Assembly: GCA_002787255.1 (NCBI GenBank)
Contig: PCWD01000056.1
Location: 1 to 38,243 of the forward strand
DNA: 38,243 nt
Origin: Parcubacteria group bacterium CG11_big_fil_rev_8_21_14_0_20_39_14
Lineage (GTDB): Bacteria; Patescibacteriota; Minisyncoccia; Minisyncoccales; GCA-002787255
Reading direction: 5' to 3'
Under the pieces are notes generated by a model. That model made no database searches, was not told where the DNA came from, and saw only the letters and a list, made by a program, of their open reading frames with translations. Numbering within the stretch: position 1 is the stretch's first letter; each line of letters starts with the position of its first letter. Shown in pieces: positions 6,860 to 38,243 of this stretch. The position numbers and the translations under genes are program-made.

Positions 6860-8338
6860 CTAAAGATTTAGAGTTTGTTCAAAGAGTTTGGCGAAGTCAA
6901 AAATTCTTTCTTCTTTAAACCAGGGCCCGATAACCTGAAGACCGACTGGCAACCCGCCAGCCTTGCCGCAAGAAACAGAAACTGCCGGAAGTCCGGCCAA
7001 GTTAATCGGAACGGTAAAAACATCGGACAGGTACATTGAAAGAGGGTCTTTGATTTTTTCGCCGAGTCTAAAAGCGGTAGTTGGACAGGTCGGAGTTAAA
7101 ATCAAATCTATCTTTTTGAAAGATTCCTCAAAATCTTTTTTTATAAGAGACCGAACTTTTTGAGCGCGTAAGTAGTAAGCCTCATAATAACCGGCTGACA
7201 AAGCATAAGTTCCCAGCATAATTCTTCTTTTTGGCTCGTCTCCAAATCCCTCCTGACGAGATTTTAAATAAACATCCAATAAATTATGCGCATTTTTTGA
7301 AAAAGCAGAATATCCAAACTTTATTCCGTCGTACCGGGCTAAATTAGCGCTAACCTCCGATGACATAATTATGTAATAACAAGCTATAGCGTATTCTGTG
7401 TGGGGCAAACTTATTTCCTCAATTTTTGCCCCCAATTCTCTTGCCTTGTCAATGGCTTTTTTTACCACATTTTCCACTTTTGAGTCAATACCCTTTACAA
7501 AATACTCCCTTGGAACCCCTATGCGTAGATTTTGGATTTTGCCTGCCCCGTACCGCGCCAAAGGCTCTGGTGCGGGGGATTTTGGATTTTGGATTTTGGA
7601 TTCGACAGAAGTCGAATCCATTTGGTCTTTACCCTTTATTACATTAAAAACAGTTCTGGCATCATCTACAGTCTTGGTGATTGGTCCTATCTGGTCAAGA
7701 CTGGAGGCCATAGCAATTAATCCGAAGCGAGAAACTGCTCCGTAGGTAGGCTTAAATCCAACCACCCCGCAGAATGAAGCGGGCTGGCGAATTGAGCCGC
7801 CGGTATCCGAGCCCAAAGCATAAACAGTAAAGGACGCAGCTACTGCTGCTGCCGAACCGGAGGAAGAACCGCCCGGAACCCGGGATTCATTATGGGGATT
7901 TTTGGTCGGGAAAAAACCCGAGTTTTCTCCGGAAGAACCCATAGCAAATTCATCCATATTGGTCTTTCCAAGAATTACTGCGCCGGCTTTTTTCAATCTT
8001 TCCACAACACAGGCGTCATAAACAGCGGTGTAATTTTCTAAAATTTTTGAGCCGGCAGTGCATCGCTCTCCTTCCACCAAAATATTATCTTTCACAGCCA
8101 TCGGGATTCCGGCAAGCGGGCTCAAATCTTCGCCATTTTCAATTTTTTCATCAATCCTTTTGGCTGTATTTAAAGCAATTTCCGGGGAAAGATTAATAAA
8201 TGCCCCTAATTTTTTGTCCTCTTTTTCAATTTTTTCCAAAAAAACCCGGGTTAATTCCAGAGAAGAAAATTTCTTTTTCTTTAAGCCCTCATAAGTTTCT
8301 TTGATGGTAAGTTTATGAAGCTCCACTTTAAAAATCAA
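6860..8338 (-). CDS. gatA: Glutamyl/aspartyl-tRNA amidotransferase subunit A
   Basis: 492 aa. Amidase signature GGSSSGSAAAVA. Motifs KDN, DSTS and IGVPREYF present. Confidence 0.93.
   Translation of the reverse strand: MIFKVELHKLTIKETYEGLKKKKFSSLELTRVFLEKIEKEDKKLGAFINLSPEIALNTAKRIDEKIENGEDLSPLAGIPMAVKDNILVEGERCTAGSKILENYTAVYDACVVERLKKAGAVILGKTNMDEFAMGSSGENSGFFPTKNPHNESRVPGGSSSGSAAAVAASFTVYALGSDTGGSIRQPASFCGVVGFKPTYGAVSRFGLIAMASSLDQIGPITKTVDDARTVFNVIKGKDQMDSTSVESKIQNPKSPAPEPLARYGAGKIQNLRIGVPREYFVKGIDSKVENVVKKAIDKARELGAKIEEISLPHTEYAIACYYIIMSSEVSANLARYDGIKFGYSAFSKNAHNLLDVYLKSRQEGFGDEPKRRIMLGTYALSAGYYEAYYLRAQKVRSLIKKDFEESFKKIDLILTPTCPTTAFRLGEKIKDPLSMYLSDVFTVPINLAGLPAVSVSCGKAGGLPVGLQVIGPWFKEERIFDFAKLFEQTLNL
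7528..7620. repeat. In-frame repeat insertion in gatA, related to the intergenic CCCCG...TACGGGGCAGGCAAA element
   Basis: Minus-sense sequence is aaaatccaaaatccaaaatcccccgcaccagagcctttggcgcggtacggggcaggcaaaatccaaaatc. It shares tacggggcaggcaaa plus flanking heptamer words with 24857-24899 and 27313-27356. Confidence 0.7.
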
Positions 8339-8471
8339 AAATCAAATATCAAAAATCAAAATTATCACCGCCGAAGCGGGATTCCGCTATGGCGGAACAT
8401 ATTAAAAATTAAAAATTTTGAATTTTGCATTATCATTTTGCATTTTAATTTTTTGCATTTTGATTTCGGGG

Positions 8472-8759: not shown

Positions 8760-8827
8760 GCCAATTTTCTCAGCGAAGCAAATCTCGAGCAAGGCGAGAG
8801 ATGCGGCTGAGCTGTTAGAAAATTGAG

Positions 8828-8921
8828 CACCCCGTTAGATAGAAAATTTATTTTATAAATTTTCATCTAACGGGGTAAAGGACTTTATAACGCTCCCCCG
8901 TTAGATAATTATCTAACGGGG
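8828..8921. repeat. ccccgttaga/tctaacgggg palindromic word element, locus 1, overlapping the ligA stop
   Basis: Two hairpins. The second, ccccgttagataattatctaacgggg (8896-8921), contains the last four ligA codons (GPVR) and the stop. Confidence 0.7.
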
Positions 8922-11044
8922 CCGCTAACAAATTCCTTTAAAAACATTTTTTCGTCTATAATTTTTACCCCAAGCTTTTTTGCTTTTTCCAATTTTGAAC
9001 CTGGATTCCTGCCGACTACCACAAAACTGGTATTTTTTGAAACAGAGCCGGAAACTTTTCCACCGAGTTCCTTTATTTTTTCTTTAACCTCGTCTCTGGT
9101 AAAAATTTTTAACTCACCGGTTAGCGCAAAAATCTTGTTTCGTAATTTTTGATTTTTTCCGCCCGAGGCGAATCCGCCTCTGGCGGAGATTTTTGCTTTT
9201 TGATATTGTGTTCTCACTCCCGCTCTTTGAAGTTTTTCCAAAAAACGAAGGTTGTCTTTGTCTTTAAACCATTTGTAAAGACTGTTGGAAACTTCCGGAC
9301 CGATATCTTGGACTTTCTGCAATTCTTCAAGGCTTGCCTTTTTTATTCTATCTAAATTTCCGAAATAATCTACCAGGGCATAAGCTGTTTCCTCCCCAAT
9401 ATGTCTTATTCCCAGAGCAAACAAAAATCGGTTTAAAGAAATTTCTTTTTTAGCTTGAATTGCTTTGATTAAATTTTTGGCTGACTTTTCAGCAAACCGT
9501 TCTAATGGTTTAATATCCCCCTCTTTTAGGATAAACAAATCGGGGATGTCGGAAATTAACCCCTCATCTAAAAATCGATCTATTATTTTTGGACCCAATC
9601 CTATTATATCAAAAGCTCTCTTGGAGACAAGATGATAAAAGTTCTCCCTTTTTATAGCCGGACAATTTTTGTTCGGACAATACCAAACCACTTCTTTCTC
9701 TTTTCTGCGCAATTTTGTCTTGCAAGCCGGACAAACTTCCGGCATTTTAAATTCTTTTTCTTTACCCGACCTAAGGCCGGGCAAAACTTTTATGATGTCG
9801 GGAATAACATCTCCGGCTCTGCCAACAATAACCGTGTCGCCAATTTTCACTCCTAATCTTTTAATTTCATCTTCATTGTGTAAAGTTGCCCGAGAAATTG
9901 TTGTTCCTCCAATCTCAACCGGCTTTAGATAAGCCACCGGGGTTAGAGCTCCGGTTCTTCCAATCTGAAGCGAAATCCCTTCAATAATAGTTATTGATTC
10001 TTTTAATGGAAACTTGTAGGCGATAGCTCCTCGGGGAGCCTTTCCAACTGTTCCCAATTTTTCAAACAAATCATTTTGATTAACAATTACCACGAGCCCG
10101 TCTATTTCATAAGGTAAAGTTTTTCTTTTTTCGCGCCAGGTTCCGTGAAATTCAAAAACCTCGGATAAATTCTTACAAAATTTATTGTGGGGATTGGTTT
10201 TAAAACCAAATGCCTTTAAAATTTTATGTTTTTCTTCATGGGTTTTTTGTCCTAAATCACAAATAAGTTCGTAAGCGTAGGAATCAAGGTTCCTGAAAGC
10301 GGTAACTTTTGGGTCAAGCTGTCTGATGGAGCCGGCAGCCATATTTCGAGGATTGGCAAAAATTGGCTCTCCCATTTTTTCTCTTTCTTTATTTACTCTT
10401 TCAAACTCTTTTTTAGTAATAAAAACTTCTCCCCTGACTATAAGTTTTTGGGGCCATTTTCTTTCTAAATTTTCAGCAATTTTTTTAAGTCCGCTTTCTT
10501 TTAATTCGGAAATTATCTCATTTTTCTCTCTTATTTTTAAAGGAATGGCTTCAATCGTTTTTAGGTTTTGAGAAACATTTTCACCGACAAAACCATCTCC
10601 CCTGGTTGAACCGACTGAAAAAATTTCTCTGTTATAAACCATTTCAATTGCCAGCCCGTCAATTTTTAATTCGCAATAATAATTCAATTCAGTTTTTGGC
10701 AACCCCTCGCCAAATTTATTTTTTTGGGGGGTAAATAAAAGTTTTTTGATTCTCTCCTCCCAGTCTTTTACATCTTTTTCCGAGAAAGCATCGTTAAATG
10801 AAAGCATTGGATAAGGATGTCTGAATTTTTCAAATTTTTCCAAAGGTTTCCCGCCCACTCTTTGAGTTGGAGAATCGAGGGTTATAAACTCGGGATGTTT
10901 TTGCTCCAAATCAAAAAGTTCCTGCTTTAGCGAATCCAAAGCCGAGTCCGAAATCTCCTGCCTGTCTAAAACATGATACAAATAACGATGGTGATTAATT
11001 TCCTTTTTTAACCTTTTAATCCGTTCAGCCGCCTCCATATTCAA
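8909..11044 (-). CDS. ligA: NAD-dependent DNA ligase
   Basis: 711 aa. Adenylation motif CELKIDGLA, Cys4 zinc finger CPACKTKL...WYCPNKNC, HhH region and C-terminal BRCT (FALTGEL...). Confidence 0.95.
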   Translation of the reverse strand: MNMEAAERIKRLKKEINHHRYLYHVLDRQEISDSALDSLKQELFDLEQKHPEFITLDSPTQRVGGKPLEKFEKFRHPYPMLSFNDAFSEKDVKDWEERIKKLLFTPQKNKFGEGLPKTELNYYCELKIDGLAIEMVYNREIFSVGSTRGDGFVGENVSQNLKTIEAIPLKIREKNEIISELKESGLKKIAENLERKWPQKLIVRGEVFITKKEFERVNKEREKMGEPIFANPRNMAAGSIRQLDPKVTAFRNLDSYAYELICDLGQKTHEEKHKILKAFGFKTNPHNKFCKNLSEVFEFHGTWREKRKTLPYEIDGLVVIVNQNDLFEKLGTVGKAPRGAIAYKFPLKESITIIEGISLQIGRTGALTPVAYLKPVEIGGTTISRATLHNEDEIKRLGVKIGDTVIVGRAGDVIPDIIKVLPGLRSGKEKEFKMPEVCPACKTKLRRKEKEVVWYCPNKNCPAIKRENFYHLVSKRAFDIIGLGPKIIDRFLDEGLISDIPDLFILKEGDIKPLERFAEKSAKNLIKAIQAKKEISLNRFLFALGIRHIGEETAYALVDYFGNLDRIKKASLEELQKVQDIGPEVSNSLYKWFKDKDNLRFLEKLQRAGVRTQYQKAKISARGGFASGGKNQKLRNKIFALTGELKIFTRDEVKEKIKELGGKVSGSVSKNTSFVVVGRNPGSKLEKAKKLGVKIIDEKMFLKEFVSGPVR

Positions 11045-11109: not shown

Positions 11110-11239
11110 TATTTGCTATTTTAAATATTTTATACCCCGCACCAGCCCCGCACCAAGATTTCTCTGGTGCGAGGTGGTGCGGAAATAGTCCAGCACCGAG
11201 CTTTACTCTGGCGCTGGGTTTGCTCTTTTATTTTAGCGC

Positions 11240-12940: not shown

Positions 12941-13080
12941 CTAATTTGATATTTGATATTTGATTTTAGCGACCCCGCCCTTTCTATAATTTCCAAAAAG
13001 TTTTGAAATTTTTATCTGTATTTATCAATTATTTAAGTTATTAACCTTTGTGGAAACTTTAGAAAAGGCGGGGGAGCGCT
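12941..13080. mobile_element. MITE-like element, copy 1
   Basis: Own TIRs are ccccgccctttcta (12973-12986) and tagaaaaggcgggg (13060-13073). Its reverse complement is near-identical over about 130 bp to 20745-20886. Confidence 0.75.
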
Positions 13081-13619
13081 TACGGTAGGTCAAGATTTCT
13101 TTGGGAAACTGTTGTCTGAAAATTGAGCTCAACTTGATACATAGAACCAACGCTGTCCAGACTTTTTACTTTTAAAACCGTAGTTACCCTGGGTTGGGTA
13201 TTGTCTGCCGTGCCAACGCCCGAAACATCAAAGTAAAGCTTCTCAACCTTTACATTGCTTGAACTTATATAATCAGCCCCCTTGGTGGAAGAGTCTTCTT
13301 TAACTCTATTATTCTCAAGAGTGTAAATTATCGTTCCCTTGATTGCATGGTTTTTTACATTTAGGGAAAGGAGTTGGACGCCGTTGGAAGTAACAATTTC
13401 GCTCATTCTTAGGGCCTTGGCAACTGTTTCCATAACATATCTTCCATTGTCTAAAACTTTTTGAGTTTCCAAACTTCTCCGCTGGGCCTTGAGCGCCGCT
13501 GAAAAAAGACCGGAAGCAGCTGCCACGGTTAACCCAAACAATGCCACTGATACCAATAATTCAACGAGAGTAAAACCTTTGTTTTTTATTGTTCTATTGT
13601 TAAATTGTTCTATTGTCAT
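13080..13619 (-). CDS. Prepilin-type minor pilin, PilW/GspJ-like
   Basis: MTIEQFNNRTIKNKG|FTLVELLVSVALFGL: class III signal with G/F cleavage site and Glu at +5. Confidence 0.75.
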   Translation of the reverse strand: MTIEQFNNRTIKNKGFTLVELLVSVALFGLTVAAASGLFSAALKAQRRSLETQKVLDNGRYVMETVAKALRMSEIVTSNGVQLLSLNVKNHAIKGTIIYTLENNRVKEDSSTKGADYISSSNVKVEKLYFDVSGVGTADNTQPRVTTVLKVKSLDSVGSMYQVELNFQTTVSQRNLDLP

Positions 13620-14920: not shown

Positions 14921-15775
14921 TCAAATTAGAAAACCGAGATACCAATTTATTAACAAATCTCCCCAGAATAATGCAACAAAGGTTCCGGCTACTAAAAATG
15001 GTCCAAAGGGCACTTCGCTCTTAAGGCTCTTTTTGCCAAAAGCGAGCAGTCCCATACCCATTATACCCCCCAATAAAAAACCAAAAAAGAGGGCTGTTAA
15101 AATATTCGGCCAACCCAAAATTAACCCTAAAAGAAATGCCAATTTTACATCTCCCCAACCCATCCAGCGCTCCCGGGACATCAAAACGATAGCTAAAAAA
15201 AATGTTGATGCTAAAATCGCTGATAAAAATGGGTTTAATAGAGTTTTGAAATCCGAAATCCGAAATCCGAAATCCGAAACAAATTCTAAATTTAAAATTC
15301 TGAAAACCTGATAAAAAAACGTAATAATAATTGCTGGAAAAATAATTCTGTCGGGAATAATATAGTGTTTTAAATCTACAACAAAAATTATTATAAGAAA
15401 ACAGGCAATAAGCAAAAAATAACAAATAGGAAATGGGTTTTGAACCCCGCACCAGAACAAGTTCGATGCTGGGCAGGAATTTAAAATTGAAAATTCATTG
15501 AAAATTAGGAGAAATAGCGACCCGGTCGCTATTTCGACTAAGGGATATTGCCAGGAAATTTTTTGATGACAAGAACGGCATTTTCCCTGAAGCAAAATAA
15601 AACTAAAAACTGGCATGAGGTCATACCAGGCAATTACTTTTTTGCAATGAGGACAATAAGACCGACCAGAAATTCTTTCTCCTTTTGGCAAACGGCAGAT
15701 TACAACATTAAGAAAACTGCCGACACAAAGACCAAGAATGAAAATAATTAAAAACACCGGTTTTATCGGCGCCAA
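14921..15775 (-). CDS. pilD: Prepilin peptidase (A24 family)
   Basis: N-terminal Cys pairs CPHC...CRSC. Catalytic Asp motifs DLKHYIIPD and GWGDVKL. Start codon uncertain (TTG at 15775). Confidence 0.9.
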   Translation of the reverse strand: MAPIKPVFLIIFILGLCVGSFLNVVICRLPKGERISGRSYCPHCKKVIAWYDLMPVFSFILLQGKCRSCHQKISWQYPLVEIATGSLFLLIFNEFSILNSCPASNLFWCGVQNPFPICYFLLIACFLIIIFVVDLKHYIIPDRIIFPAIIITFFYQVFRILNLEFVSDFGFRISDFKTLLNPFLSAILASTFFLAIVLMSRERWMGWGDVKLAFLLGLILGWPNILTALFFGFLLGGIMGMGLLAFGKKSLKSEVPFGPFLVAGTFVALFWGDLLINWYLGFLI

Positions 15776-15879: not shown

Positions 15880-17097
15880 TTAAAATACCGTGCCGGCCAT
15901 CTGATAAATGGGCATTATAATCCCAACAACAATAAATCCCACGGCAGCCCCAAGCACTAAAATCATTAGGGGCTCAACAAGGCTGACCAAATTATCGGTC
16001 ATTCTGGTTACTTCTTTTTTATAAAATTCGGCTGAGTTTTTTAAAACTGCCGGCAATTTACCGGTTTTTTCACCGATTAAAATCATTTGAGTAATTAAAG
16101 GGGGTATTTCTTTTTCCATTTTAAATATAGAGCTCATAAATTCTCCCCGCCTTATTCCCGCCTCGGCTTTAAGAATTATGTCTCTATAAGTTTCGTTTCC
16201 GACGACATCTGCCGCTACCTCCATTGATTTGGAAATTGGCAAGCCTCCCGTGATTAGGGTGCTTAAATTTTCCGAAAAACGGGCAAGGGAGATTTTTTTA
16301 AAAAGTTCTCCAAAAACCGGCACTTTTAAAATAAATTTGTCCCAGATTTTTTTGCCTTTGGCCGTAGCTTTCCAATATAGAAAAAAAACAATGCCCCCGG
16401 CCAAAAATATAAATAATATCCAGCCCCAGCTTCTTAAAAACATGGTAAAGGCCATAATTATTCGGGTGACCGTTGGCAGACCCTGACCCGATTCTTCCAA
16501 AACTGAAGTTAAAGCCGGAATTACAAAAAGAAGCATTATGGTCATTACAATAATCAGGGCGCAAAAAATAAAAGCCGGGTAATACATTGACCCTTTAACT
16601 TTGCTCATTATATCGTATTCGCTTTCATAGTGGTCGGCAAGGTAAGACAGCGATTCGGAAAGTTTTCCGGAAAGTTCTCCGGCTCGAATCATGCTTACAT
16701 AAAAACTGGAAAAAATTTCAGGGTATTTTGAAAGAGCTTTGGAAAAAGCCGTCCCGGACTCAACATTGTCAGAGATTTTAAAAATCTTTTCCCGAAAACG
16801 AGAATTACCTACCTGGTTGCCCATTGTTCTTAAAGACTCAACCAAAGGAACTTCTGAGACAAAAAGGATGGCAAGCTGACGAGAAAAAATGGAAACATCC
16901 CGTAAACTAACCTTTTTGGTAATTAATGGAATTTCTAATTTTTTAAAGAAAGAAGGAGCTTCCTCAATTTCTCTTAAACTAGTTACTATAAGATTGTGTC
17001 TTTGTAAAATATCAATAGCCGCTTCCTGGCTGGAAACCTCAACAATGCCTGACTGAACTGTTCCCTTTGGGGTTCTGGCTTGATATTCAAACTTCAT
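15880..17097 (-). CDS. pilC: Type IV pilus platform protein PilC (GspF family)
   Basis: 405 aa with two GspF-like repeats and three TM segments. Located between pilB and pilD. Confidence 0.9.
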   Translation of the reverse strand: MKFEYQARTPKGTVQSGIVEVSSQEAAIDILQRHNLIVTSLREIEEAPSFFKKLEIPLITKKVSLRDVSIFSRQLAILFVSEVPLVESLRTMGNQVGNSRFREKIFKISDNVESGTAFSKALSKYPEIFSSFYVSMIRAGELSGKLSESLSYLADHYESEYDIMSKVKGSMYYPAFIFCALIIVMTIMLLFVIPALTSVLEESGQGLPTVTRIIMAFTMFLRSWGWILFIFLAGGIVFFLYWKATAKGKKIWDKFILKVPVFGELFKKISLARFSENLSTLITGGLPISKSMEVAADVVGNETYRDIILKAEAGIRRGEFMSSIFKMEKEIPPLITQMILIGEKTGKLPAVLKNSAEFYKKEVTRMTDNLVSLVEPLMILVLGAAVGFIVVGIIMPIYQMAGTVF

Positions 17098-17176
17098 ACC
17101 TTTAAAAACTTAAAAAATTAAAAATCTAAAAAAATAAAATAATCGGTTTTTATATCTTTAAATTTTTATGTTTTTA
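17098..17176 (-). repeat. AT-rich palindromic 5-prime leader element, copy upstream of pilC
   Basis: cctttaaaaacttaaaaaattaaaaatctaaaaaaataaaataatcggtttttatatctttaaatttttatgttttta. About 95 percent identical by eye to 20355-20433. Confidence 0.75.
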
Positions 17177-17285
17177 TCCCGCGCCTTTTCCAGCGAGCGT
17201 TTCCGATAATACGGAATTGGTCCCGCACCTTTTTAGGACAACTTCGTTATTTTGCGCAAAGCGCAGTCCACAAAAGGTGCGGGAT

Positions 17286-19031: not shown

Positions 19032-19077
19032 GTTAGAAATTGTTAGCGAGCCAAAGGCGAGCGTTACAATTTCTTAC

Positions 19078-19143
19078 ACCCCGTTAGATAGCCCCAATTA
19101 GAGATGGCGACTACGCCTATCTAATGGGGCGTCTAATGGGGTA
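19078..19143. repeat. ccccgttaga/tctaatgggg palindromic element, locus 2, upstream of pilB
   Basis: ccccgttagatagccccaattagagatggcgactacgcctatctaatggggcgtctaatgggg. Aligns with 21644-21706. Confidence 0.7.
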
Positions 19144-19274
19144 AAGGACTTTGTAACACCCCGCTCTCTCTGTGCTCTTGGAATTTTTATTGAAAGTTAT
19201 TATAAGAGAATATAGCTTTCCAAATAATTTAATTTTCAATCCGAGGGCTTAGAGGGCGGGGTTAATAAATTCCT

Positions 19275-20354
19275 TTAGTATTGTTTTTTCATTCTTGACC
19301 TTAATTCTGACGGATTTAAAGAATAAATCAAAGCGTTTTCCATTGAAATTTCTCTTCTTTTTACAAGTTCGACCAAAGAACGATTGAGAGCTATCATTCC
19401 GAGCTCCGTATTTGTTTCAATAACCAAGTTTAATTCATGGGTTTTGCCCTCTCTAATCAGGGATGATACAGCCGGGCAACTAATCATTATTTCGCTTGCC
19501 GGAATTCTTCCACCCTCAATTCGAGGAATAAGCCTTTGGGAAATTACTCCCAAAAGAGTAGCCGCAAGCTGAGACCTTATCTGATTCTGTTGACTGGCCG
19601 GAAAACTATCAATAATTCTGTCAACAGTTTGAGAAGCGTTATTGGTGTGCAAAGAAGCAAAAACCAAGTGTCCGGTCTCGGCTGCCGTAATGGCCGCCGA
19701 CATCGTTTCATAGTCTCTCATCTCTCCTATCATAATTACATCGGGATCCTGACGGAAAACCGATCTTAGAGCATTGTGAAAATTATAAGTATCCAATATC
19801 ACCTCTCTTTGATTAACAATTGCCCTGTCCTGAATAAAAAGATACTCAATTGGGTCCTCAATTGTTACAATATGGTCGGTTCGGGTATGGTTTATTTCAT
19901 CAATTAAAGCCGCTAAAGTTGTGGATTTTCCGTGACCGGATGGGCCAACCACCAAAACAAAACCCTGATTTGCTTGAGAAAATTCATGACAGATGGGTGG
20001 CAAATTTAACTCTTCAATTGTTTTAATTCTGGCGGGAATAAGACGCAAGGCCGCGCTAATAAAACCCCTCTGAAAAAAAACATTAACCCGAAACCTGACT
20101 TTGTCCTTGTGGGAATAAGAAAAATCAATTTCTTTTTCTCTAAGAAACCTTTCTTTCTGTTCTTCTGAAAGCAAAGCAAAAACCAAACCCTCGCAATCCT
20201 TGGGAGTAAGAATTTCTTTCTTTTCAATGGAAACCAGAGCTCCGTCAATTCTCAAAGTTGGCTTTCTGCCTACCCCTAAATGAAGATCTGACGCATTGCC
20301 TTGAGCAACCATGAGTAAAAGCTCATCTAATTCTTGTTGATAATTAATTATCAT
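19275..20354 (-). CDS. pilT: Type IV pilus retraction ATPase PilT
   Basis: 359 aa. Walker A GPSGHGKST. PilT-type size with no N-terminal GSPII domain. Confidence 0.9.
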   Translation of the reverse strand: MIINYQQELDELLLMVAQGNASDLHLGVGRKPTLRIDGALVSIEKKEILTPKDCEGLVFALLSEEQKERFLREKEIDFSYSHKDKVRFRVNVFFQRGFISAALRLIPARIKTIEELNLPPICHEFSQANQGFVLVVGPSGHGKSTTLAALIDEINHTRTDHIVTIEDPIEYLFIQDRAIVNQREVILDTYNFHNALRSVFRQDPDVIMIGEMRDYETMSAAITAAETGHLVFASLHTNNASQTVDRIIDSFPASQQNQIRSQLAATLLGVISQRLIPRIEGGRIPASEIMISCPAVSSLIREGKTHELNLVIETNTELGMIALNRSLVELVKRREISMENALIYSLNPSELRSRMKKQY

Positions 20355-20433
20355 GCCTTTAAAAACTTAAAAAATTAAAAATCTAAAAACATAAAATAAT
20401 CGGTTTTTATATTTTTAGATTTTTATGTTTTTA
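20355..20433 (-). repeat. AT-rich palindromic 5-prime leader element, copy upstream of pilT
   Basis: Abuts the pilT start codon. Differs from 17098-17176 at about 4 positions. Confidence 0.75.
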
Positions 20434-20446
20434 GATTTTTATTACT

Positions 20447-20743
20447 TTAATATGGCACAAAGGGATTTTCTCGACCGCTCTCTTCTACGGTTAGAGAAGA
20501 AATGTCGGGAAAACTTTCCAGGGCCTGGAATCTCTCATCCTTTAAAATTTCCCATTTTATATCAAGTTTTTTTAGTTCTTCGGAAACAACGGGAACTGCC
20601 TCCTGGGGCTTTTCAGAAACCGGCGGCTTCGCCCCCAAAAAAACAAAATAAAAAATGCTTGCCAAAGCAATCAATACAATTACAAAACCAACCCACAAAA
20701 TGAGCTTTTTCCTTCTTCCTTTTTGAACAATTGTTATGGCCAT
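20447..20743 (-). CDS. Single-pass membrane protein, possibly PilP-like
   Basis: 98 aa with an N-terminal TM helix and a C-terminal GRENPFVPY motif. Located between pilO and pilT. Confidence 0.45.
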   Translation of the reverse strand: MAITIVQKGRRKKLILWVGFVIVLIALASIFYFVFLGAKPPVSEKPQEAVPVVSEELKKLDIKWEILKDERFQALESFPDISSLTVEESGRENPFVPY

Positions 20744-20744
20744 A

Positions 20745-20886
20745 AGCTCTCCCCTGCCCTTTCTAAAGTTTCCACAAAGGTTAATAACTCAAATAATTGA
20801 TAAATACAGATAAAAATTTCAAAACTTTTTGGAAATTATAGAAAGGGCGGGGTCGCTAAAATAAAATATCAAATATTAAAAATCAA
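20745..20886. mobile_element. MITE-like element, copy 2, inverted relative to copy 1
   Basis: tcccctgccctttctaaagtttccacaaaggttaataact...ggaaattatagaaagggcggggtcgc. It abuts the start codon of the 98-aa gene and supplies its GGGGAG Shine-Dalgarno. Confidence 0.75.
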
Positions 20887-21082
20887 AAATAGAATAAGGT
20901 TTCTAAAATTTACCTAGAACCAATTCTTCACGGAGTTTATCCCGCACCGAATTTATTCTGGTGCGGGGTTAAGAATGGCACGGGGCAAGCACTGGGGAAT
21001 TCGACCAAAAATACTGACCGTGCTTTCCCCCCACTCTCCACCAAGACGGGGTAGTATTTGAGGTTATTTTACATTTTGATTT

Positions 21083-21643: not shown

Positions 21644-21706
21644 CCTGTTAGATAGCCCCGTTAGGTGGCGGTTACGCCCATCTAATGGGGCGCTCATCTA
21701 ACGGGG
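21644..21706. repeat. ccccgttaga/tctaacgggg palindromic element, locus 3, upstream of pilO
   Basis: ctgttagatagccccgttaggtggcggttacgcccatctaatggggcgctcatctaacgggg. Confidence 0.7.
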
Positions 21707-21778
21707 TCAGTCAACCCCGTTAGAAATAAAATATAAAAGATAAAAATTTATAGGGTGAGATTGTTGAATAATTATTTT

Positions 21779-24475: not shown

Positions 24476-24641
24476 AAAAAGTTTAAAATTACCTTATACC
24501 GGGTATGCCCCGTTAGAAGTCTGTCTTTAACCGGATAGACAATTAACGAGGCAAGTCAATATTTATTCTATTAATACTTTATTCTGCTGTTAGAAACTAT
24601 TCGTTTCTAAACAGGGCAAAGACTTTTAATTCTAATGGGGT

Positions 24642-24827
24642 ATGGCCAAACAATGTCAAATTTGCGGTAAAAAAAGCGTGCTGGTTTGGAGGCGAAAAAA
24701 ACTTCGCGGAAAGTATAACCCTACCAGCAAAAAAAGAAAATATCCCAACCTCCAGTGGATTCGTTTGCCTTCAGGCAAGCGAGTAAAAGCTTGCGCAAAA
24801 TGCATCAAACGCCTTTATAAGGCGTAA
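24642..24827 (+). CDS. rpmB: 50S ribosomal protein L28
   Basis: 61 aa, MAKQCQICGKK...NPTSKKRKYPNLQ... Basic, typical L28. Confidence 0.85.
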   Translation: MAKQCQICGKKSVLVWRRKKLRGKYNPTSKKRKYPNLQWIRLPSGKRVKACAKCIKRLYKA

Positions 24828-24856
24828 TTTCTAAATCTCAATTTCTAACTTCTAAA

Positions 24857-24899
24857 CCCGGAGGATCCCGCCAAGGCGGGACCTACGGGGCAGGCAAAT
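24857..24899 (+). repeat. GC hairpin core element CCCCG-(cccgcc aa ggcggg)-ACCTACGGGGCAGGCAAAT, copy A
   Basis: cccggaggatcccgccaaggcgggacctacggggcaggcaaat. Near-identical to 27313-27356 and flanked by heptamer-type AT words. Confidence 0.8.
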
Positions 24900-24982
24900 T
24901 CAAAATTCCAAATTCAAAATTCTAAACACGTAGTTTCGGATTTCAAAATTTGAATTTCGAATTTCCTGCCCACAGCAGGTTG

Positions 24983-25057
24983 CGGGGTGTAGTATAACGG
25001 CTATTATGCGCGCATGGGGTGCGTGCGATCCGGGTTCAATTCCCGGCACCCCGACCA
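24983..25057 (+). tRNA. tRNA-Pro (GGG), CCA encoded
   Basis: Acceptor CGGGGTG/CACCCCG (C1:G72), A73, CCA. Anticodon stem CGCGC/GCGTG, loop ATGGGGT. T-arm CCGGG-TTCAATT-CCCGG. Confidence 0.85.
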
Positions 25058-27312: not shown

Positions 27313-27356
27313 CCCCGAAGAATCCCGCCAAGGCGGGACCTACGGGGCAGGCAAAT
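27313..27356 (+). repeat. GC hairpin core element, copy B
   Basis: ccccgaagaatcccgccaaggcgggacctacggggcaggcaaat, located upstream of dnaX. Confidence 0.8.
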
Positions 27357-29992: not shown

Positions 29993-31555
29993 GTGGCTAA
30001 AAAAAAAGAAATAATTATTCTTTTAATAATTTTAGCGATTGCCGCCTTTTTCAGGTTTTTTGAATTGGCGGATATTCCTCCCGGGCTTTATCCAGATGTG
30101 GCAATTAACGGGAATGACGCCCTTGACGCCCTCAAAACCGGAGATTTTAAGGTTTTTTATCCTGAAAATAACGGCCGAGAGGGCCTTTTTATTAATCTTA
30201 TCGCCCTGTCTTTTTTAATTTTCGGCCCTTCAATCCTGGCTATAAAAATTGTAGCGGCAGTTATCGGAATTCTTACAGTTTTTGGTCTTTACCTTTTGAC
30301 AAAAGAGCTGTTTAAAAAAACGCCGATTGCCCTGCTTTCCGCTTTTTTTCTGGCTACTTCATTCTGGCATACCAATTTTTCGCGCATCGGCTTTCGGGGA
30401 ATTTTAGTTCCTTTTATTCTGGTTTTTTCTTCTTATTTCCTCTTTAGAGCATTGAGAACCAACAAGCTTTCGGATTTTATAATCTCCGGTGTATTTTTTG
30501 GTTTGGGATTTTATACTTATATTTCCTTTAGAATGGCTGTTTTGATTTTACCCGCTATCATCATTCCTTTTTGGTTTGTCTGCAAAAAAAATAAGGTCCA
30601 GAAGAAATATCTATTTTCTGTTTTCTATTTTCTATTTTCTATTTTTTTAGTTGCTCTGCCGATTGGTCTTTATTTTTTAGACAATCCCCAAGATTTTATT
30701 AGTCGAGCCGGCGGAGTTTCAATTTTTGCTCAAGAAAATCCCTTCAAAGCGTTTTTTGAAAGTTTTATAAAACACTTAGGAATGTTTAATATCCGGGGGG
30801 ACGGCAACTGGAGGCATAACTTCGCGGACGCTCCAATGCTCTCCTGGCCGGTCGGAATATTCTTTTTAATCGGCTTGGTGATATCAATTAAGGATTTATT
30901 CTTATTGCGAAAAGAAAAAAACTATTTTAGGTTTTATGTTTTATGTTTTATGTTAAGCTGGTTTTTGGCAATGCTTTTGCCCGGAATTCTAACTTATGAG
31001 GGTGTCCCCCACGCTTTGCGGGTAATCGGAGTTGTCCCCGCACTCTATATCTTTGCCGGCCTCGGGGCTTTCTGGTTTATTGAAAAAGCAAAACCTTTGA
31101 CAAAAAACTTAAAATTATTTTTTATTTTTTACTTTTTGCTTTTTGCTTTGAGCGGATATGCCGAGTATGATAAATATTTTGTTGATTGGGCGAAGCACCC
31201 AACCACTTCCGATGAATTCTCCAAAGAAAAAGTGGAAATCGGACTGTATTTGAATTCATTGACTGATAATATAGAAAAATTTGTGATTATAAACGAAGCC
31301 GGAGTCCCCGCGCCCTGGCCCGACGGGCTTCCGATGCCGGCTCAAACACCAATGTTTATTGAAAGAACGGTTTTTAACGAGCCTCAAGCTGCTTACTTAA
31401 AAGAAAATGAGCTTGATAAAATTAAACCCGCCAAAAAGGCGGTAATAATTCCAATAAGGTTTGATAAAGAACTTTTTGATAAACTTAAAGAACTCCATCC
31501 CGAAGGAGAAGCTAAAAAGGAAAATGGAGTGTGGATATACCTTATAAAAAAATAA
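29993..31555 (+). CDS. GT-C fold glycosyltransferase (family 39/83, ArnT/PMT-like)
   Basis: 520 aa with more than 10 TM segments. ArnT/PMT-like topology with a soluble C-terminal domain. Confidence 0.6.
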   Translation: MAKKKEIIILLIILAIAAFFRFFELADIPPGLYPDVAINGNDALDALKTGDFKVFYPENNGREGLFINLIALSFLIFGPSILAIKIVAAVIGILTVFGLYLLTKELFKKTPIALLSAFFLATSFWHTNFSRIGFRGILVPFILVFSSYFLFRALRTNKLSDFIISGVFFGLGFYTYISFRMAVLILPAIIIPFWFVCKKNKVQKKYLFSVFYFLFSIFLVALPIGLYFLDNPQDFISRAGGVSIFAQENPFKAFFESFIKHLGMFNIRGDGNWRHNFADAPMLSWPVGIFFLIGLVISIKDLFLLRKEKNYFRFYVLCFMLSWFLAMLLPGILTYEGVPHALRVIGVVPALYIFAGLGAFWFIEKAKPLTKNLKLFFIFYFLLFALSGYAEYDKYFVDWAKHPTTSDEFSKEKVEIGLYLNSLTDNIEKFVIINEAGVPAPWPDGLPMPAQTPMFIERTVFNEPQAAYLKENELDKIKPAKKAVIIPIRFDKELFDKLKELHPEGEAKKENGVWIYLIKK

Positions 31556-33517: not shown

Positions 33518-33564
33518 CAATATCCAATATCCAATATCTAATATCTAATATCTAATATCTAATA
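33518..33564. repeat. Heptanucleotide tandem array (CAATATC x3, TAATATC x3, partial)
   Basis: Read directly. It fills the spacer between the GT39-like stop and the truncated paralogue's start. Confidence 0.85.
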
Positions 33565-37886: not shown

Positions 37887-38243
37887 TTATTGTCCGTAAT
37901 AATAGTCCTGGTTTGTTGAATAACCTTTACCATCCATACAGGTTACTTCATATACCGGAAAATAGTAAGACCTGGAAGCGACATCCCAGTTTTCATTATC
38001 TCCTGTATCAACATATTTATAAACTATCACCCTTCCCCGCTGGTATTTGTAATTTTGGTATCCATAGGTTCCTTGAGCGCATTTACAGAATTTTTTTGCC
38101 TGGCCTTGATTCCTATAAAGATACTGGTAATCTCCTTTCCAACATTTTTCAGCTGGTGGCGGTATGGGAGTTGGTGTGGGTGTTGGAGTTGGAGTTGGAG
38201 TTGGAGTTGGAGTGGGAGTGGGAGTTGGAGTTGGAGTTGGAGT
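37887..38243 (-). CDS. Partial CDS: (Thr-Pro)n linker plus Cys/Tyr-rich C-terminal domain; N-terminus lies beyond the window
   Basis: Own translation: TPTPTPTPTPTPTPTPTPTPTPTPIPPPAEKCWKGDYQYLYRNQGQAKKFCKCAQGTYGYQNYKYQRG...DYYYGQ*. Stop codon at 37887-37889. Confidence 0.7.
   Translation of the reverse strand, partial: TPTPTPTPTPTPTPTPTPTPTPTPTPIPPPAEKCWKGDYQYLYRNQGQAKKFCKCAQGTYGYQNYKYQRGRVIVYKYVDTGDNENWDVASRSYYFPVYEVTCMDGKGYSTNQDYYYGQ

What the first reader, a model, noticed from the sequence alone, without database searches (positions are those of the whole stretch)
7528..7620. Essential gatA carries an in-frame copy of an intergenic repeat family
GatA between the conserved DSTS and IGVPREYF motifs reads VESKIQNPKSPAPEPLARYGAGKIQNLR.

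- The coding DNA is (AAAATCC)n - CCCCGCACCAGAGCCTTTGGCGCGGTACGGGGCAGGCAAA - ATCCAAAATC.
- This is the same layout, with the same 15-nt TACGGGGCAGGCAAA block, as the two intergenic copies at 24857-24899 and 27313-27356. Those copies have AT heptamer words, then CCCCG, a hairpin, then TACGGGGCAGGCAAA, then AT words.
- From memory of Bacillus-type GatA, this linker is roughly 10 residues longer than usual.
- A 9-bp palindrome, ggattcgac-agaa-gtcgaatcc (7598-7619), marks one junction and includes the DSTS codons.
Basis: partly seen in the sequence, partly recalled or inferred. Interest (0 to 1): 0.7.

Follow-up and report, generated by a model that had tools for sequence, protein, structure and literature searches.

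The report
Hairpin repeat inserted in-frame in gatA
The essential gatA gene of this ultra-small (Parcubacteria-type) bacterium has a 36-base GC-rich hairpin repeat inserted in-frame inside a run of 7-base "words", and the same little element turns up between genes and inside many housekeeping genes across numerous bacterial phyla, apparently without having been described.

Summary

- **The insert.** GatA (6860..8338, minus strand) reads (AAAATCC)x3, then a 36-nt core CCCCG...CGGGGCAGG (7542-7577), then CAAAATCC AAAATCT.
- **Family membership.** A covariance model scores the GatA copy at 46.5 bits (E 2e-11), as high as the two intergenic copies.
- **Empty site.** A syntenic relative (L002) has only (AAAATCA)x4 at this position.
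- **Hot spot.** At least seven other GatA lineages carry different cores of the same family at the same spot, in two reading frames.
- **Other genes.** PilD carries a diverged copy of this family in-frame; LigA carries a second kind of GC hairpin in a word array.
- **Distribution.** A pattern scan hit at least 119 loci in many phyla. About a third are in-frame in genes such as SecA, EF-G, IF-2, UvrC and RuvB, almost always in sense.
- **Structure.** The hairpin shows strong compensatory covariation.
- **Insertion point.** Removing exactly CCCCG...CAGG usually restores the heptamer register. This indicates precise insertion just 5' of CAA(A), with no target duplication.

Best reading: a REP/RPE-like selfish hairpin element tolerated in a disordered surface linker. 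No mobilising enzyme was found, and a function at the RNA level is not excluded.

The parts
6860..8338 (-). gatA (Asp/Glu-tRNA amidotransferase subunit A). The listed ORF starts at TTG 8338; the likely true start is GTG 8326.
   Evidence: The ORF is. Hits at up to 99% identity carry PF01425. Solved GatA structures match at E 1e-148. The AF2 model matches GatA structures with TM 0.83-0.87. Catalytic K83, S158 and S182 lie in invariant or near-invariant columns.
7542..7577 (-). The inserted 36-nt GC-rich hairpin core, CCCCGCACCAGAGCCTTTGGCGCGGTACGGGGCAGG. It encodes most of PAPEPLARYGAG. The boundaries can be slid by one C.
   Evidence: The covariance model match 7538-7577 scores 46.5 bits, E 2e-11. 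The predicted hairpin has -17.0 kcal/mol. The core is absent from the L002 linker. Excising it leaves five in-register heptamers (sequence).
7578..7597 (-). Upstream part of the heptamer word array, (AAAATCC)x3, which shares its last C with the core.
   Evidence: TRF reports period 7 at 100% identity over 7577-7602. The L002 orthologue has (AAAATCA)x4 here.
7527..7541 (-). Downstream part of the word array, CAAAATCC AAAATCT, encoding KIQNL.
7597..7620 (.). A 10-bp perfect palindrome with a 4-nt loop over the DSTSVES codons, at the 5' edge of the array.
   Evidence: An 8-bp version exists in L122, but not in L002, L124, L125 or L126. Its significance is unclear.
24857..24898 (+). Intergenic family copy between a ribosomal protein L28-like small ORF and tRNA-Pro, flanked by word arrays.
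   Evidence: 34.7 bits, E 4e-8.
27313..27355 (+). Intergenic family copy between the GtrA-like gene and dnaX, flanked by word arrays. It is antisense to both genes.
   Evidence: 47.1 bits, E 1.5e-11.
15445..15479 (+). A diverged family copy inside the prepilin peptidase ORF (14921..15775, minus strand). It is antisense to the gene and in-frame, encoding the hydrophobic stretch SCPASNLFWCGV.
   Evidence: 19.0 bits, E 8e-4.
15248..15279 (+). (GAAATCC)x4.6 word array, in-frame in the prepilin peptidase (FVSDFGFRISDFK). L002 has words plus a sense core at the same site.
20941..20967 (-). Partial family member: the hairpin is present but the CAGG tail is missing. Intergenic.
   Evidence: 17.2 bits, E 0.003.
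9134..9211 (-). LigA segment in which a second kind of GC core (the double hairpin TCCGCCAGAGGCGGA TTCGCCTCGGGCGGA) sits in-frame in a word array, giving ISARGGFASGG.
   Evidence: The same kind of core occurs in the gatC-gatA spacer 8365-8395 and in the GatA linkers of L124 and L125.

Best explanation
The GatA insert is one copy of a small, non-autonomous, REP/RPE-like selfish element.

**What the element is.** It is a 33-45-nt GC-rich hairpin. It has an outer stem CCCCG/CGGGG, an A-A mismatch, a 3-bp stem, a bulged A and a variable inner stem-loop. A single-stranded CAGG(C) tail follows.

**Where it lands.** It inserts precisely, with no target duplication, immediately 5' of CAA(A). On the other strand that is 3' of (A/T)TTG. 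Arrays of 7-nt words of the form CAAAxxx, which fill the spacers of these AT-rich genomes, therefore offer many targets.

**Why GatA was hit.** In Parcubacteria the surface linker between the DSTS helix and the IGVP strand of GatA is itself encoded by such an array. In the lineage of this window the element landed between the third and fourth word.

**Why it was tolerated.** The unit is 36 nt long and was inserted in sense, so it adds 12 hydrophilic Pro/Gly/Ala-rich residues to a flexible loop. The enzyme is left intact.

**Shown:** family membership, hairpin covariation, the empty site in a relative, recurrence at the same site, in-frame copies in many housekeeping genes, and restoration of the array register on excision.

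**Inferred:** that the element is mobile, the mechanism of mobility (single-strand hairpin recognition of the IS200/IS605 or RAYT type, or copy-in by recombination between arrays), and neutrality for GatA.
For: 1. **Full-length family member.** The GatA copy scores 46.5 bits, E 2e-11.
2. **Empty versus filled site.** The L002 linker is GAGCTC(AAAATCA)x4, with no core.
3. **Independent insertions at the same linker.**
   - L122 scores 54 bits with a different inner stem.
   - Core-encoded peptides occur in both frames. The window, P0010 and P0079 read ..YGAGK. P0091, P0032, P0056 and P0101 read ..TGQA..
   - 87 of 117 relatives have short linkers of 16-20 aa.
4. **Same behaviour in other genes.**
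   - L002 PilD has two sense cores at the sites where the window has an antisense core and bare words.
   - L002 LigA also carries a copy.
5. **Wide distribution.**
   - 35-38 of 120 matches lie inside long ORFs, including SecA, EF-G, IF-2, UvrC, RuvB, a P-type ATPase and DnaX/HolB.
6. **Evidence that the copies are translated.** The ratio is 35 sense to 4 antisense. About 17 copies use one frame and about 16 another, while the Arg-rich third frame is used about once. This points to protein-level purifying selection.
7. **Hairpin covariation.** 94.3% of cells are paired against 75.9% in shuffles. 77 cells have changes on both sides against 21.8 +/- 3.6 in shuffles. Slid controls reach at most 47.5%.
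8. **Precise insertion.** Excising exactly CCCCG...CAGG restores the heptamer register in about 11 of 19 informative loci, where about 3 would be expected by chance.
9. **Shared cores in unrelated contexts.** 97-100% identical 40-nt cores sit in unrelated flanks in different genomes.
10. **Disordered linker.** The insert falls in a coil with pLDDT 39-63, between helix 224-234 and strand 272-276 (pLDDT 85-94). The model has pTM 0.85.
11. **Precedent.** In-frame REPs, RPEs and mitochondrial GC clusters are documented (PMC3733652, PMC10969869, PMC8811140).
Against: - **No enzyme found.**
  - The window has no transposase.
  - A tblastn search with E. coli RayT over 917 kb of element-bearing loci gave nothing significant.
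  - The single Y1-like ORF (in L102) is flanked by hairpins of a different kind.
- **No recent donor.** No copy in the window has the same inner stem as the GatA core, so there is no sign of recent transposition.
- **Distant comparison.** The only filled/empty comparison is with a relative at 75% protein identity.
- **Conservation suggests constraint.**
  - REP families are usually species-specific. Here a 13-15-nt tag is shared across phyla.
  - An orthologous copy in RuvB of three species is 97-100% identical while its flanks are 71-79% identical.
  - This hints at nucleotide-level constraint or gene conversion. The sample was, however, ascertained by exact match to 20 of the 37 positions.
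- **Orientation and position.** Intergenic copies are biased towards the sense orientation (25 to 11). They sit closer to the upstream gene's stop than to the next gene's start. This would also fit a 3'-UTR function.
- **No viral copies** were found.
Confidence: 0.6

Rival explanations
1. The hairpin is a functional cis element that selection maintains at the nucleic-acid level. It could be an mRNA 3'-end stabiliser or processing site, a Rho-type signal working with the C-rich, G-poor words, or the binding site of a widely conserved protein. Under this view the GatA copy either acts on the gatCA mRNA or is a by-product of the process that creates such sites.
For: - The CGGGGCAGG tag is conserved across many phyla.
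- Compensatory changes keep the stem intact.
- The orthologous RuvB copy is 97-100% identical while its flanks are 71-79% identical.
- Intergenic copies between co-directional genes are 25 sense to 11 antisense. They lie a median of roughly 90 nt after the upstream stop, closer than to the next start.
- The Bacteroidota-type copies keep a conserved 14-nt loop sequence instead of an inner stem.
Against: - About a third of the sampled copies lie inside unrelated housekeeping ORFs, at non-homologous positions.
- Presence at a given site varies between relatives.
- The orientation differs at the same PilD site in two relatives.
- No Rfam family matches.
- The conservation statistics are inflated, because loci were selected by exact match to 20 positions.
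- The sense orientation is not that of an intrinsic terminator, since no U-tract follows the stem.
Confidence: 0.25
2. There is no dedicated mobility. The core was copied into gatA by ectopic homologous recombination or gene conversion between similar heptamer arrays. The word arrays on either side of an intergenic copy would supply the homology.
For: - The core is flanked on both sides by the same kind of words in gatA and in the spacers.
- Arrays are everywhere in the window.
- Insertion leaves no target duplication and keeps the register, as conversion would.
- Yeast mitochondrial GC clusters spread in var1 by unidirectional gene conversion (PMC8811140).
Against: - Words differ between loci: AAAATCC in gatA, against TCTAAAT and AAATTCA at the spacer copies. 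The available homology is therefore only a few bases.
- Many coding copies in other genomes have no word array around them, for example RuvB, EF-G and the P-type ATPase.
- The insertion point relative to CAA(A) is more precise than recombination would require.
Confidence: 0.1
3. The extra residues are an adaptive, protein-level addition to GatA, such as a new interaction loop, and the nucleotide resemblance to the spacers is secondary.
For: The insert is in-frame, hydrophilic and retained in two or three closely related assemblies.
Against: - The peptide is not conserved, and other lineages carry different cores, frames and lengths.
- The same DNA element occurs in spacers and in dozens of unrelated proteins.
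- The predicted loop is disordered.
Confidence: 0.03
4. The segment is not translated. It would be removed from the RNA, or bypassed by the ribosome as are the 'byp' GC clusters of Magnusiomyces mitochondria.
For: A stable hairpin sits in the coding sequence, flanked by near-identical words that could act as take-off and landing sites. Bypassed GC clusters exist (PMC8811140).
Against: - The unit is a multiple of three (36 nt here, 33 nt in L122) and is open.
- Across genomes the coding copies avoid one frame and the antisense orientation. That pattern is expected only if they are translated.
Confidence: 0.02

Closest known systems
REP elements (repetitive extragenic palindromes), including intragenic REPs (Di Nocera et al. 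2013, PMC3733652)
   Same: - A 20-40-nt GC-rich imperfect palindrome with an unpaired tag at one end.
- Many copies, mostly just downstream of ORFs.
- Some copies lie inside genes, notably replication and repair genes, where they encode short tolerated peptides.
   Different: - The tag is CAGG(C) 3' of the stem, not GTAG or CGTC.
- No dimers (BIMEs) were seen.
- No RAYT was found.
- The family spans many phyla, including Patescibacteria.
- Copies are nested in heptamer word arrays.
Rickettsia palindromic elements (RPEs; Ogata et al. 2000, as reviewed in PMC10969869)
   Same: Palindromic repeats inserted in-frame into unrelated, functional housekeeping genes of a reduced genome. They encode peptides compatible with the protein's fold.
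   Different: - RPEs are about 100-150 bp and restricted to Rickettsia.
- This unit is 33-45 nt, is found in many phyla, and is used in two reading frames.
Mobile GC clusters of yeast mitochondrial DNA (var1 in-frame insertions; PMC8811140)
   Same: - Short GC-rich palindromes scattered in AT-rich spacers.
- Optional in-frame insertions in a protein gene.
- Conserved termini with a variable interior.
- Spread by conversion-like events.
   Different: - They are mitochondrial.
- They have AG/TAG terminal repeats that are read as target duplications.
- There is no sequence relationship to this family.
- No target duplication is seen here.
IS200/IS605-type ends and their derivatives (PATEs, REP/RAYT): single-strand hairpin transposition (own knowledge of IS608/ISDra2)
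   Same: - A subterminal hairpin with a mismatch or bulge.
- Insertion next to a fixed short motif, without target duplication.
- Orientation bias.
   Different: - No Y1 transposase is linked to the element.
- Only a single hairpin is present, rather than distinct left and right ends.

Membership tests
REP (GTAG/CGTC-tagged superfamilies) | Small (20-40 bp) imperfect palindrome able to form a stem-loop. | tested here: met
   Cores are 33-45 nt. 94.3% of cells are paired, with 77 compensatory cells.
REP (GTAG/CGTC-tagged superfamilies) | Unpaired GTAG or CGTC motif at one end of the stem. | tested here: not met
   The conserved unpaired tag is CAGG(C), 3' of the stem. On the other strand GTA(G) lies inside the helix.
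REP (GTAG/CGTC-tagged superfamilies) | A linked RAYT (Y1 transposase) flanked by the repeats. | tested here: inconclusive
   None was found in the window. None was linked to the element in 917 kb of loci. The L102 Y1-like ORF has different flanking hairpins. Whole genomes were not available.
REP (GTAG/CGTC-tagged superfamilies) | High copy number, mainly extragenic and downstream of ORFs. | tested here: inconclusive
   The window holds 4 confident and 2 partial copies in 38 kb. 81 of 120 sampled copies lie outside long ORFs, closer to the upstream stop. The genome-wide count is unknown.
Rickettsia palindromic elements | In-frame insertion into unrelated functional ORFs. | tested here: met
   GatA and PilD in the window, and LigA in L002. 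Elsewhere: SecA, EF-G, IF-2, UvrC and RuvB.
Rickettsia palindromic elements | A unit of about 100-150 bp that encodes one conserved peptide. | tested here: not met
   The unit is 33-45 nt, and two frames are used about equally.
MITE | 15-30-bp terminal inverted repeats, 70-300 bp in length, with a target-site duplication. | tested here: not met
   The unit is too short. Excising the unit alone restores the array register, so there is no duplication.
IS200/IS605-like single-strand elements | Insertion adjacent to a fixed tetranucleotide, without target duplication. | tested here: inconclusive
   The register test supports insertion just 5' of CAA(A). However, the scan pattern itself required GGCAAA. 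Non-seed copies keep CAGG(C), while the AAA is less constant.
Intrinsic (Rho-independent) terminator | A GC hairpin followed by a U-tract in the direction of transcription. | tested here: not met
   Only the antisense strand has this form. Between co-directional genes the copies are 25 sense to 11 antisense.
Translational bypass elements (byps) | An insert that breaks the reading frame or contains stops, and is skipped by the ribosome. | tested here: not met
   The units are 36 nt and 33 nt and open. Frame and orientation show signs of selection.
Rfam RNA families | A match to a curated covariance model. | tested here: not met
   Only tRNAs reach the gathering score. Nothing relevant appears up to E 10 over 24700-25000.

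The most novel reading that the evidence does not exclude
This may be an undescribed, pan-bacterial family of about 36-nt hairpin elements carrying a CGGGGCAGG tag. Under this reading:

- The element inserts site-specifically beside CAA(A) in heptamer microsatellite arrays.
- It is moved by a still-unknown hairpin-recognising enzyme, or it serves a conserved RNA or DNA function.
- Together with the arrays, it repeatedly remodels surface loops of essential proteins (GatA, PilD, LigA, SecA, EF-G, IF-2, RuvB) in Patescibacteria and other AT-rich lineages.
Probability: 0.35. Interest if true: 0.8.

Novelty: new variant of a known kind. Interest (0 to 1): 0.62.

Why it matters
- **A new case outside Rickettsia and mitochondria.** Selfish palindromes that survive inside essential genes are known there. 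Here the same phenomenon appears in the Candidate Phyla Radiation and in many other phyla, with one recognisable 36-nt unit.
- **A testable insertion rule.** The element lands next to CAA(A) in 7-nt arrays and leaves no target duplication.
- **An explanation for odd loops.** It accounts for the low-complexity loops (KIQNSK..., ..PEGxQxxYGAGK.., ..PKExKxPTGQAK..) that litter CPR proteins. These loops confound alignments, structure prediction and gene calling.
- **A mutational hazard.** Heptamer arrays inside essential genes can shift the reading frame by slippage.
- **Practical value.** If a mobilising enzyme or a binding protein exists, the conserved tag gives a handle for finding it. The covariance model built here can annotate the family.

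Tried and rejected
- **Intrinsic terminator.** Rejected on the orientation counts.
- **Known RNA family.** Rfam gave nothing at the gathering score or at E up to 10.
- **Literature.** The sequence strings, and CPR combined with MITE/REP/RAYT/palindromic terms, returned no description. One preprint could not be opened.
- **Phage vehicle.** There were no hits in viral contigs.
- **Closer empty site.** A metagenome scan with the gatA junction 21-mer returned only the P0002 contig.
- **Transposase.** Pfam on 20 window ORFs found none. RayT tblastn over all loci found only a weak Y1-like ORF in L102, which has its own, different flanking hairpins.
- **L026.** Its pair of inverted copies proved to be a 204-nt inverted duplication around a paralogous secreted-protein gene, not an IS.
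- **Structure prediction.** The first AF2 run, on 36 sequences, was too poor to use (pLDDT 59.8). The second run, on 119 sequences, was usable. Solvent exposure could not be computed because no coordinates are returned.
- **Register test.** The first thresholds were too strict and left only one locus. The test was repeated with looser thresholds.
Full report
**What is in the window.** The ORF 6860..8338 on the minus strand is gatA.
- Its best database hits (up to 99% identity) carry the amidase domain and come from Parcubacteria/Nealsonbacteria-type metagenome bins.
- It matches solved GatA chains at E 1e-148.
- Its catalytic Lys/Ser/Ser positions lie in invariant or near-invariant alignment columns.
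- Between the DSTS and IGVP motifs the coding strand reads GGATTCGACTTCTGTCGAATCC, (AAAATCC)x3, CCCGCACCAGAGCCTTTGGCGCGGTACGGGGCAGGC, AAAATCC AAAATCT.
- The 15-mer TACGGGGCAGGCAAA occurs three times exactly in the window.
- The two spacer copies are 88% identical over 65 nt.
- The same gatA insert is present in two independent assemblies (L001, L127).

**Two layers, not one.** I aligned 36 and then 119 relatives and read the linker DNA of six of them.
- The GatA linker of these bacteria is normally encoded by a heptamer array:
  - (AAAATCA)x4 in the syntenic relative L002;
  - CAAATTT words in L122;
  - CGAAATC words in L123.
- 87 of 117 relatives have linkers of 16-20 aa of the KIxNxKxxIxNLR type.
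- A second loop after DGIKYG is also array-encoded in many relatives: (TCAAAAG)x5 in L122 and (TCCGAAA)x5 in L125.
- In solved GatA structures the first segment is 19-20 aa and not repetitive.
- What is specific to the window's lineage is the 36-nt GC core (7542-7577) between the third and fourth word. Removing it leaves five heptamers in register.

**The core belongs to a very large family.** I scanned one genome per species with TTTGCCTGCCCCGTA N15-35 CSGGG.
- By record title the hits come from many CPR lineages: Nomura-, Kaiser-, Giovannoni-, Moran-, Wolfe-, Berkel-, Doudna-, Yanofsky-, Nealsonbacteria and others.
- They also come from Bacteroidota, Ignavibacteria, Cloacimonadota, Latescibacterota, WOR-3, Armatimonadota, Omnitrophota, Elusimicrobia, Desulfobacterales, Planctomycetia and some Gammaproteobacteria MAGs. 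MAG labels may be imprecise.
- Two subtypes stand out:
  - a CPR type with an inner stem-loop, consensus CCCCGAAGGAGAACAAGTTCCCTACGGGGCAGGCAAA;
  - a Bacteroidota-type with a 7-bp stem and a conserved 14-nt loop, CCCCGTACAGTCATTCTTCCTTACGGGGCAGGCAAA.
- Most copies sit between A/C-rich word arrays.

**The hairpin is under structural constraint.** I tested 38 CPR-type cores against the structure P1(5 bp)-A.A-P2(3 bp)-bulged A-P3(4-5 bp).
- 94.3% of cells are paired, against 75.9% in shuffles and at most 47.5% when the partners are slid.
- 77 cells have changes on both sides, against 21.8 +/- 3.6 in shuffles.

**The covariance model finds more copies.** The model built on this structure (R1) finds the following in the window:

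| Position | Strand | Bits | Note |
|---|---|---|---|
| 27313-27355 | + | 47.1 | spacer copy |
| 7538-7577 | - | 46.5 | the GatA copy |
| 24857-24898 | + | 34.7 | spacer copy |
| 15445-15479 | + | 19.0 | inside PilD, antisense to the gene |
| 20941-20967 | - | 17.2 | partial, hairpin only |
| 11145-11174 | - | 10.9 | partial |

The model's two ends match by construction, because the seed sequences were chosen by those ends. The fit of the GatA inner stem is independent evidence.

**Recurrent insertion at the same sites.**
- L122 carries a 54-bit copy at the same GatA position, with a different inner stem.
- Among the 119 GatA proteins, core-encoded peptides occur in both reading frames. The window, P0010 and P0079 read ..YGAGK. 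P0091, P0032, P0056 and P0101 read ..TGQA.. A shared ancestral insert cannot explain the two frames.
- Other relatives carry a second kind of GC core at the same position, a double hairpin CCCGCC..GCGGGATCCCG..GGCGGGA (L124, L125). This kind also occurs in the window's gatC-gatA spacer and in-frame in LigA (9134-9211).
- PilD behaves in the same way. At two sites the window has an antisense core plus words, and bare words. L002 has sense cores at both sites.
- The antisense reading is hydrophobic (SCPASNLFWCGV) and lies in a membrane protein. The sense readings are hydrophilic and lie in soluble proteins.

**Coding copies elsewhere.**
- 35-38 of the 120 sampled copies lie inside long ORFs.
- The ten I checked include SecA, EF-G, IF-2, UvrC, RuvB, a P-type ATPase, DnaX/HolB, FemAB and an O-antigen ligase/TPR protein.
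- The ratio is 35 sense to 4 antisense.
- About 17 use the frame ..PEGxQxxYGAGK.., about 16 use ..PKExKxPTGQAK.., and about one uses the Arg-rich third frame.
- All three sense frames are open, so the skew points to selection on the translated peptide. In other words, the copies are translated.

**Insertion geometry.** I took loci whose flanks are periodic and asked which excision restores the heptamer register.
- Removing exactly CCCCG...CGGGGCAGG is the best choice in about 11 of 19 informative cases. By my arithmetic chance would give about 3.
- Examples are GT^CAAAT in L004, TT^CAAAA in L100, CAAATTT^CAAATTT in L122 and AAAATC^CAAAATCC in gatA.
- There is no target duplication.
- Copies found by the model rather than by the search pattern keep GGGGCAGG(C). 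The following AAA is less constant. The mobile unit is therefore the hairpin plus CAGG(C), and CAA(A) belongs to the target.
- Read on the other strand, this is insertion 3' of (A/T)TTG next to a hairpin with a mismatch and a bulge. That is the geometry of IS200/IS605 and REP/RAYT systems (own knowledge). This is an analogy, not a demonstrated mechanism.

**What I could not find.**
- No transposase is present in the window.
- No RayT-like gene is linked to the element in 917 kb of loci. The one Y1-like ORF (L102) has unrelated flanking hairpins.
- No Rfam family matches.
- No copies occur in viral contigs.
- No paper in the searchable library mentions the sequence or describes such elements in CPR bacteria.

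**Function versus selfishness.** Some data lean towards a nucleic-acid-level role.
- Between co-directional genes the copies are 25 sense to 11 antisense, and they sit nearer the upstream stop.
- An orthologous RuvB copy in three species is 97-100% identical while its flanks are 71-79% identical. This is tempered by the exact-match ascertainment.
- The sense orientation lacks a U-tract, so it is not a classical terminator.
- A REP-like role in mRNA stabilisation or processing remains possible, and it is compatible with a selfish origin.

**Effect on GatA.**
- The second AF2 model (119 sequences, pLDDT 78.7, pTM 0.85) matches GatA structures with TM 0.83-0.87.
- It places residues 249-265 in a coil with pLDDT below 50. 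This coil lies between a confident helix (224-234) and a confident strand (272-276).
- Together with the length hypervariability of this segment (15-37 aa), this supports a flexible surface linker.
- Exposure relative to GatB, GatC and the tRNA could not be computed here.

**Comparison with what is known.**
- In-frame palindromic repeats are established for RPEs (PMC10969869) and for GTAG/CGTC REPs, including copies in repair and replication genes (PMC3733652).
- They are also established for the GC clusters of yeast mitochondria, including var1 (PMC8811140).
- This element works like those but fails their membership tests. Its tag is CAGG(C), not GTAG or CGTC. It is 36 nt, not about 150 bp. 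It has no target duplication and no TIR-plus-TSD architecture. It spans many phyla.
- I therefore file it as a new variant of a known kind.

**Verdict.**
- The finding is a good entry point to an apparently undescribed, widespread hairpin element, and to the heptamer arrays that host it.
- The mechanism of spread, and any function, remain inferred.

Noticed in passing
window, nearly all spacers, e.g. 1221-1348, 2416-2524, 5998-6237, 8330-8466, 17102-17177, 20359-20449, 24896-24965, 33519-33564: Almost every intergenic region consists of tandem 7-nt (sometimes 8-nt) AT-rich words that are specific to each locus. They are usually arranged as two inverted arrays that would form long AT hairpins. 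Some also lie inside ORFs (30610-30645, 30925-30954 and 31115-31149, in the PMT_2 glycosyltransferase gene).
   Followed up: partly
window 14921-15775 (-), sites 15445-15479 and 15248-15279; L002 4413-4455 and 4605-4644: The prepilin peptidase carries an antisense hairpin core and a (GAAATCC)x4.6 array in-frame. The syntenic relative has sense-oriented cores at the same two sites. The antisense reading is hydrophobic, which suits a membrane protein.
   Followed up: partly
window 9134-9211 (LigA), 8365-8395 (gatC-gatA spacer); L124 and L125 GatA linkers: A second family of GC cores, consisting of two short hairpins in tandem ((T)CCGCC-N3-4-GGCGGA twice). It is also nested in word arrays and is also found in-frame (LigA ISARGGFASGG).
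   Followed up: partly
window 10676-10741 (LigA): An 11-residue insertion (TPQKNKFGEGLPKT) relative to L002 LigA. Its DNA, CCCCCCAAAAAAATAAATTTGGCGAGGGGTTGCCAAAA, looks like a decayed core.
   Followed up: no
window 12945-13085 and 20740-20880: A 141-nt inverted repeat, 95% complementary, brackets the whole type IV pilus gene block (pilins to pilT).
   Followed up: no
window 17080-17176 and 20337-20433: A 97-nt direct repeat (91% identity) made of word arrays lies immediately upstream of both pilB and pilT.
   Followed up: no
window 8825-8908, 19056-19160, 21698-21723, 24505-24640: A third repeat family is built on CCCCGTTAGA / TCTAACGGGG hairpins, with a TAAAGGACTTTnTAAC box. It occurs at several gene ends.
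   Followed up: no
window 7597-7620; L122 linker: A 10-bp perfect palindrome over the DSTSVES codons sits at the 5' edge of the gatA array. An 8-bp version is present in L122, which also has a core of this family. It is absent from four relatives that lack this kind of core (only two positive cases).
   Followed up: partly
P0002 / L127: The first ~200 residues of this GatA are diverged, while the rest is identical to the window, insert included. The contig is either a recombinant or a chimera.
   Followed up: no
window 38167-38243: A (GGAGTT)n hexamer array at the edge of the window encodes a Pro-Thr repeat on the minus strand of a truncated ORF.
   Followed up: no
L102 3968-4639 (-): A CPR contig encodes a Y1 (IS200-like) transposase-like protein (Pfam 20.9 bits, below the cutoff). 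It is flanked on both sides by GATTGAGGTTTAACCTCAATC hairpins, giving a REPtron-like unit unrelated to the element studied here.
   Followed up: partly
L017, L041, L107 (RuvB): Three species share an orthologous in-frame core in RuvB. The core is 97-100% identical while 300-nt flanks are 71-79% identical. This suggests constraint or conversion, subject to ascertainment bias.
   Followed up: partly
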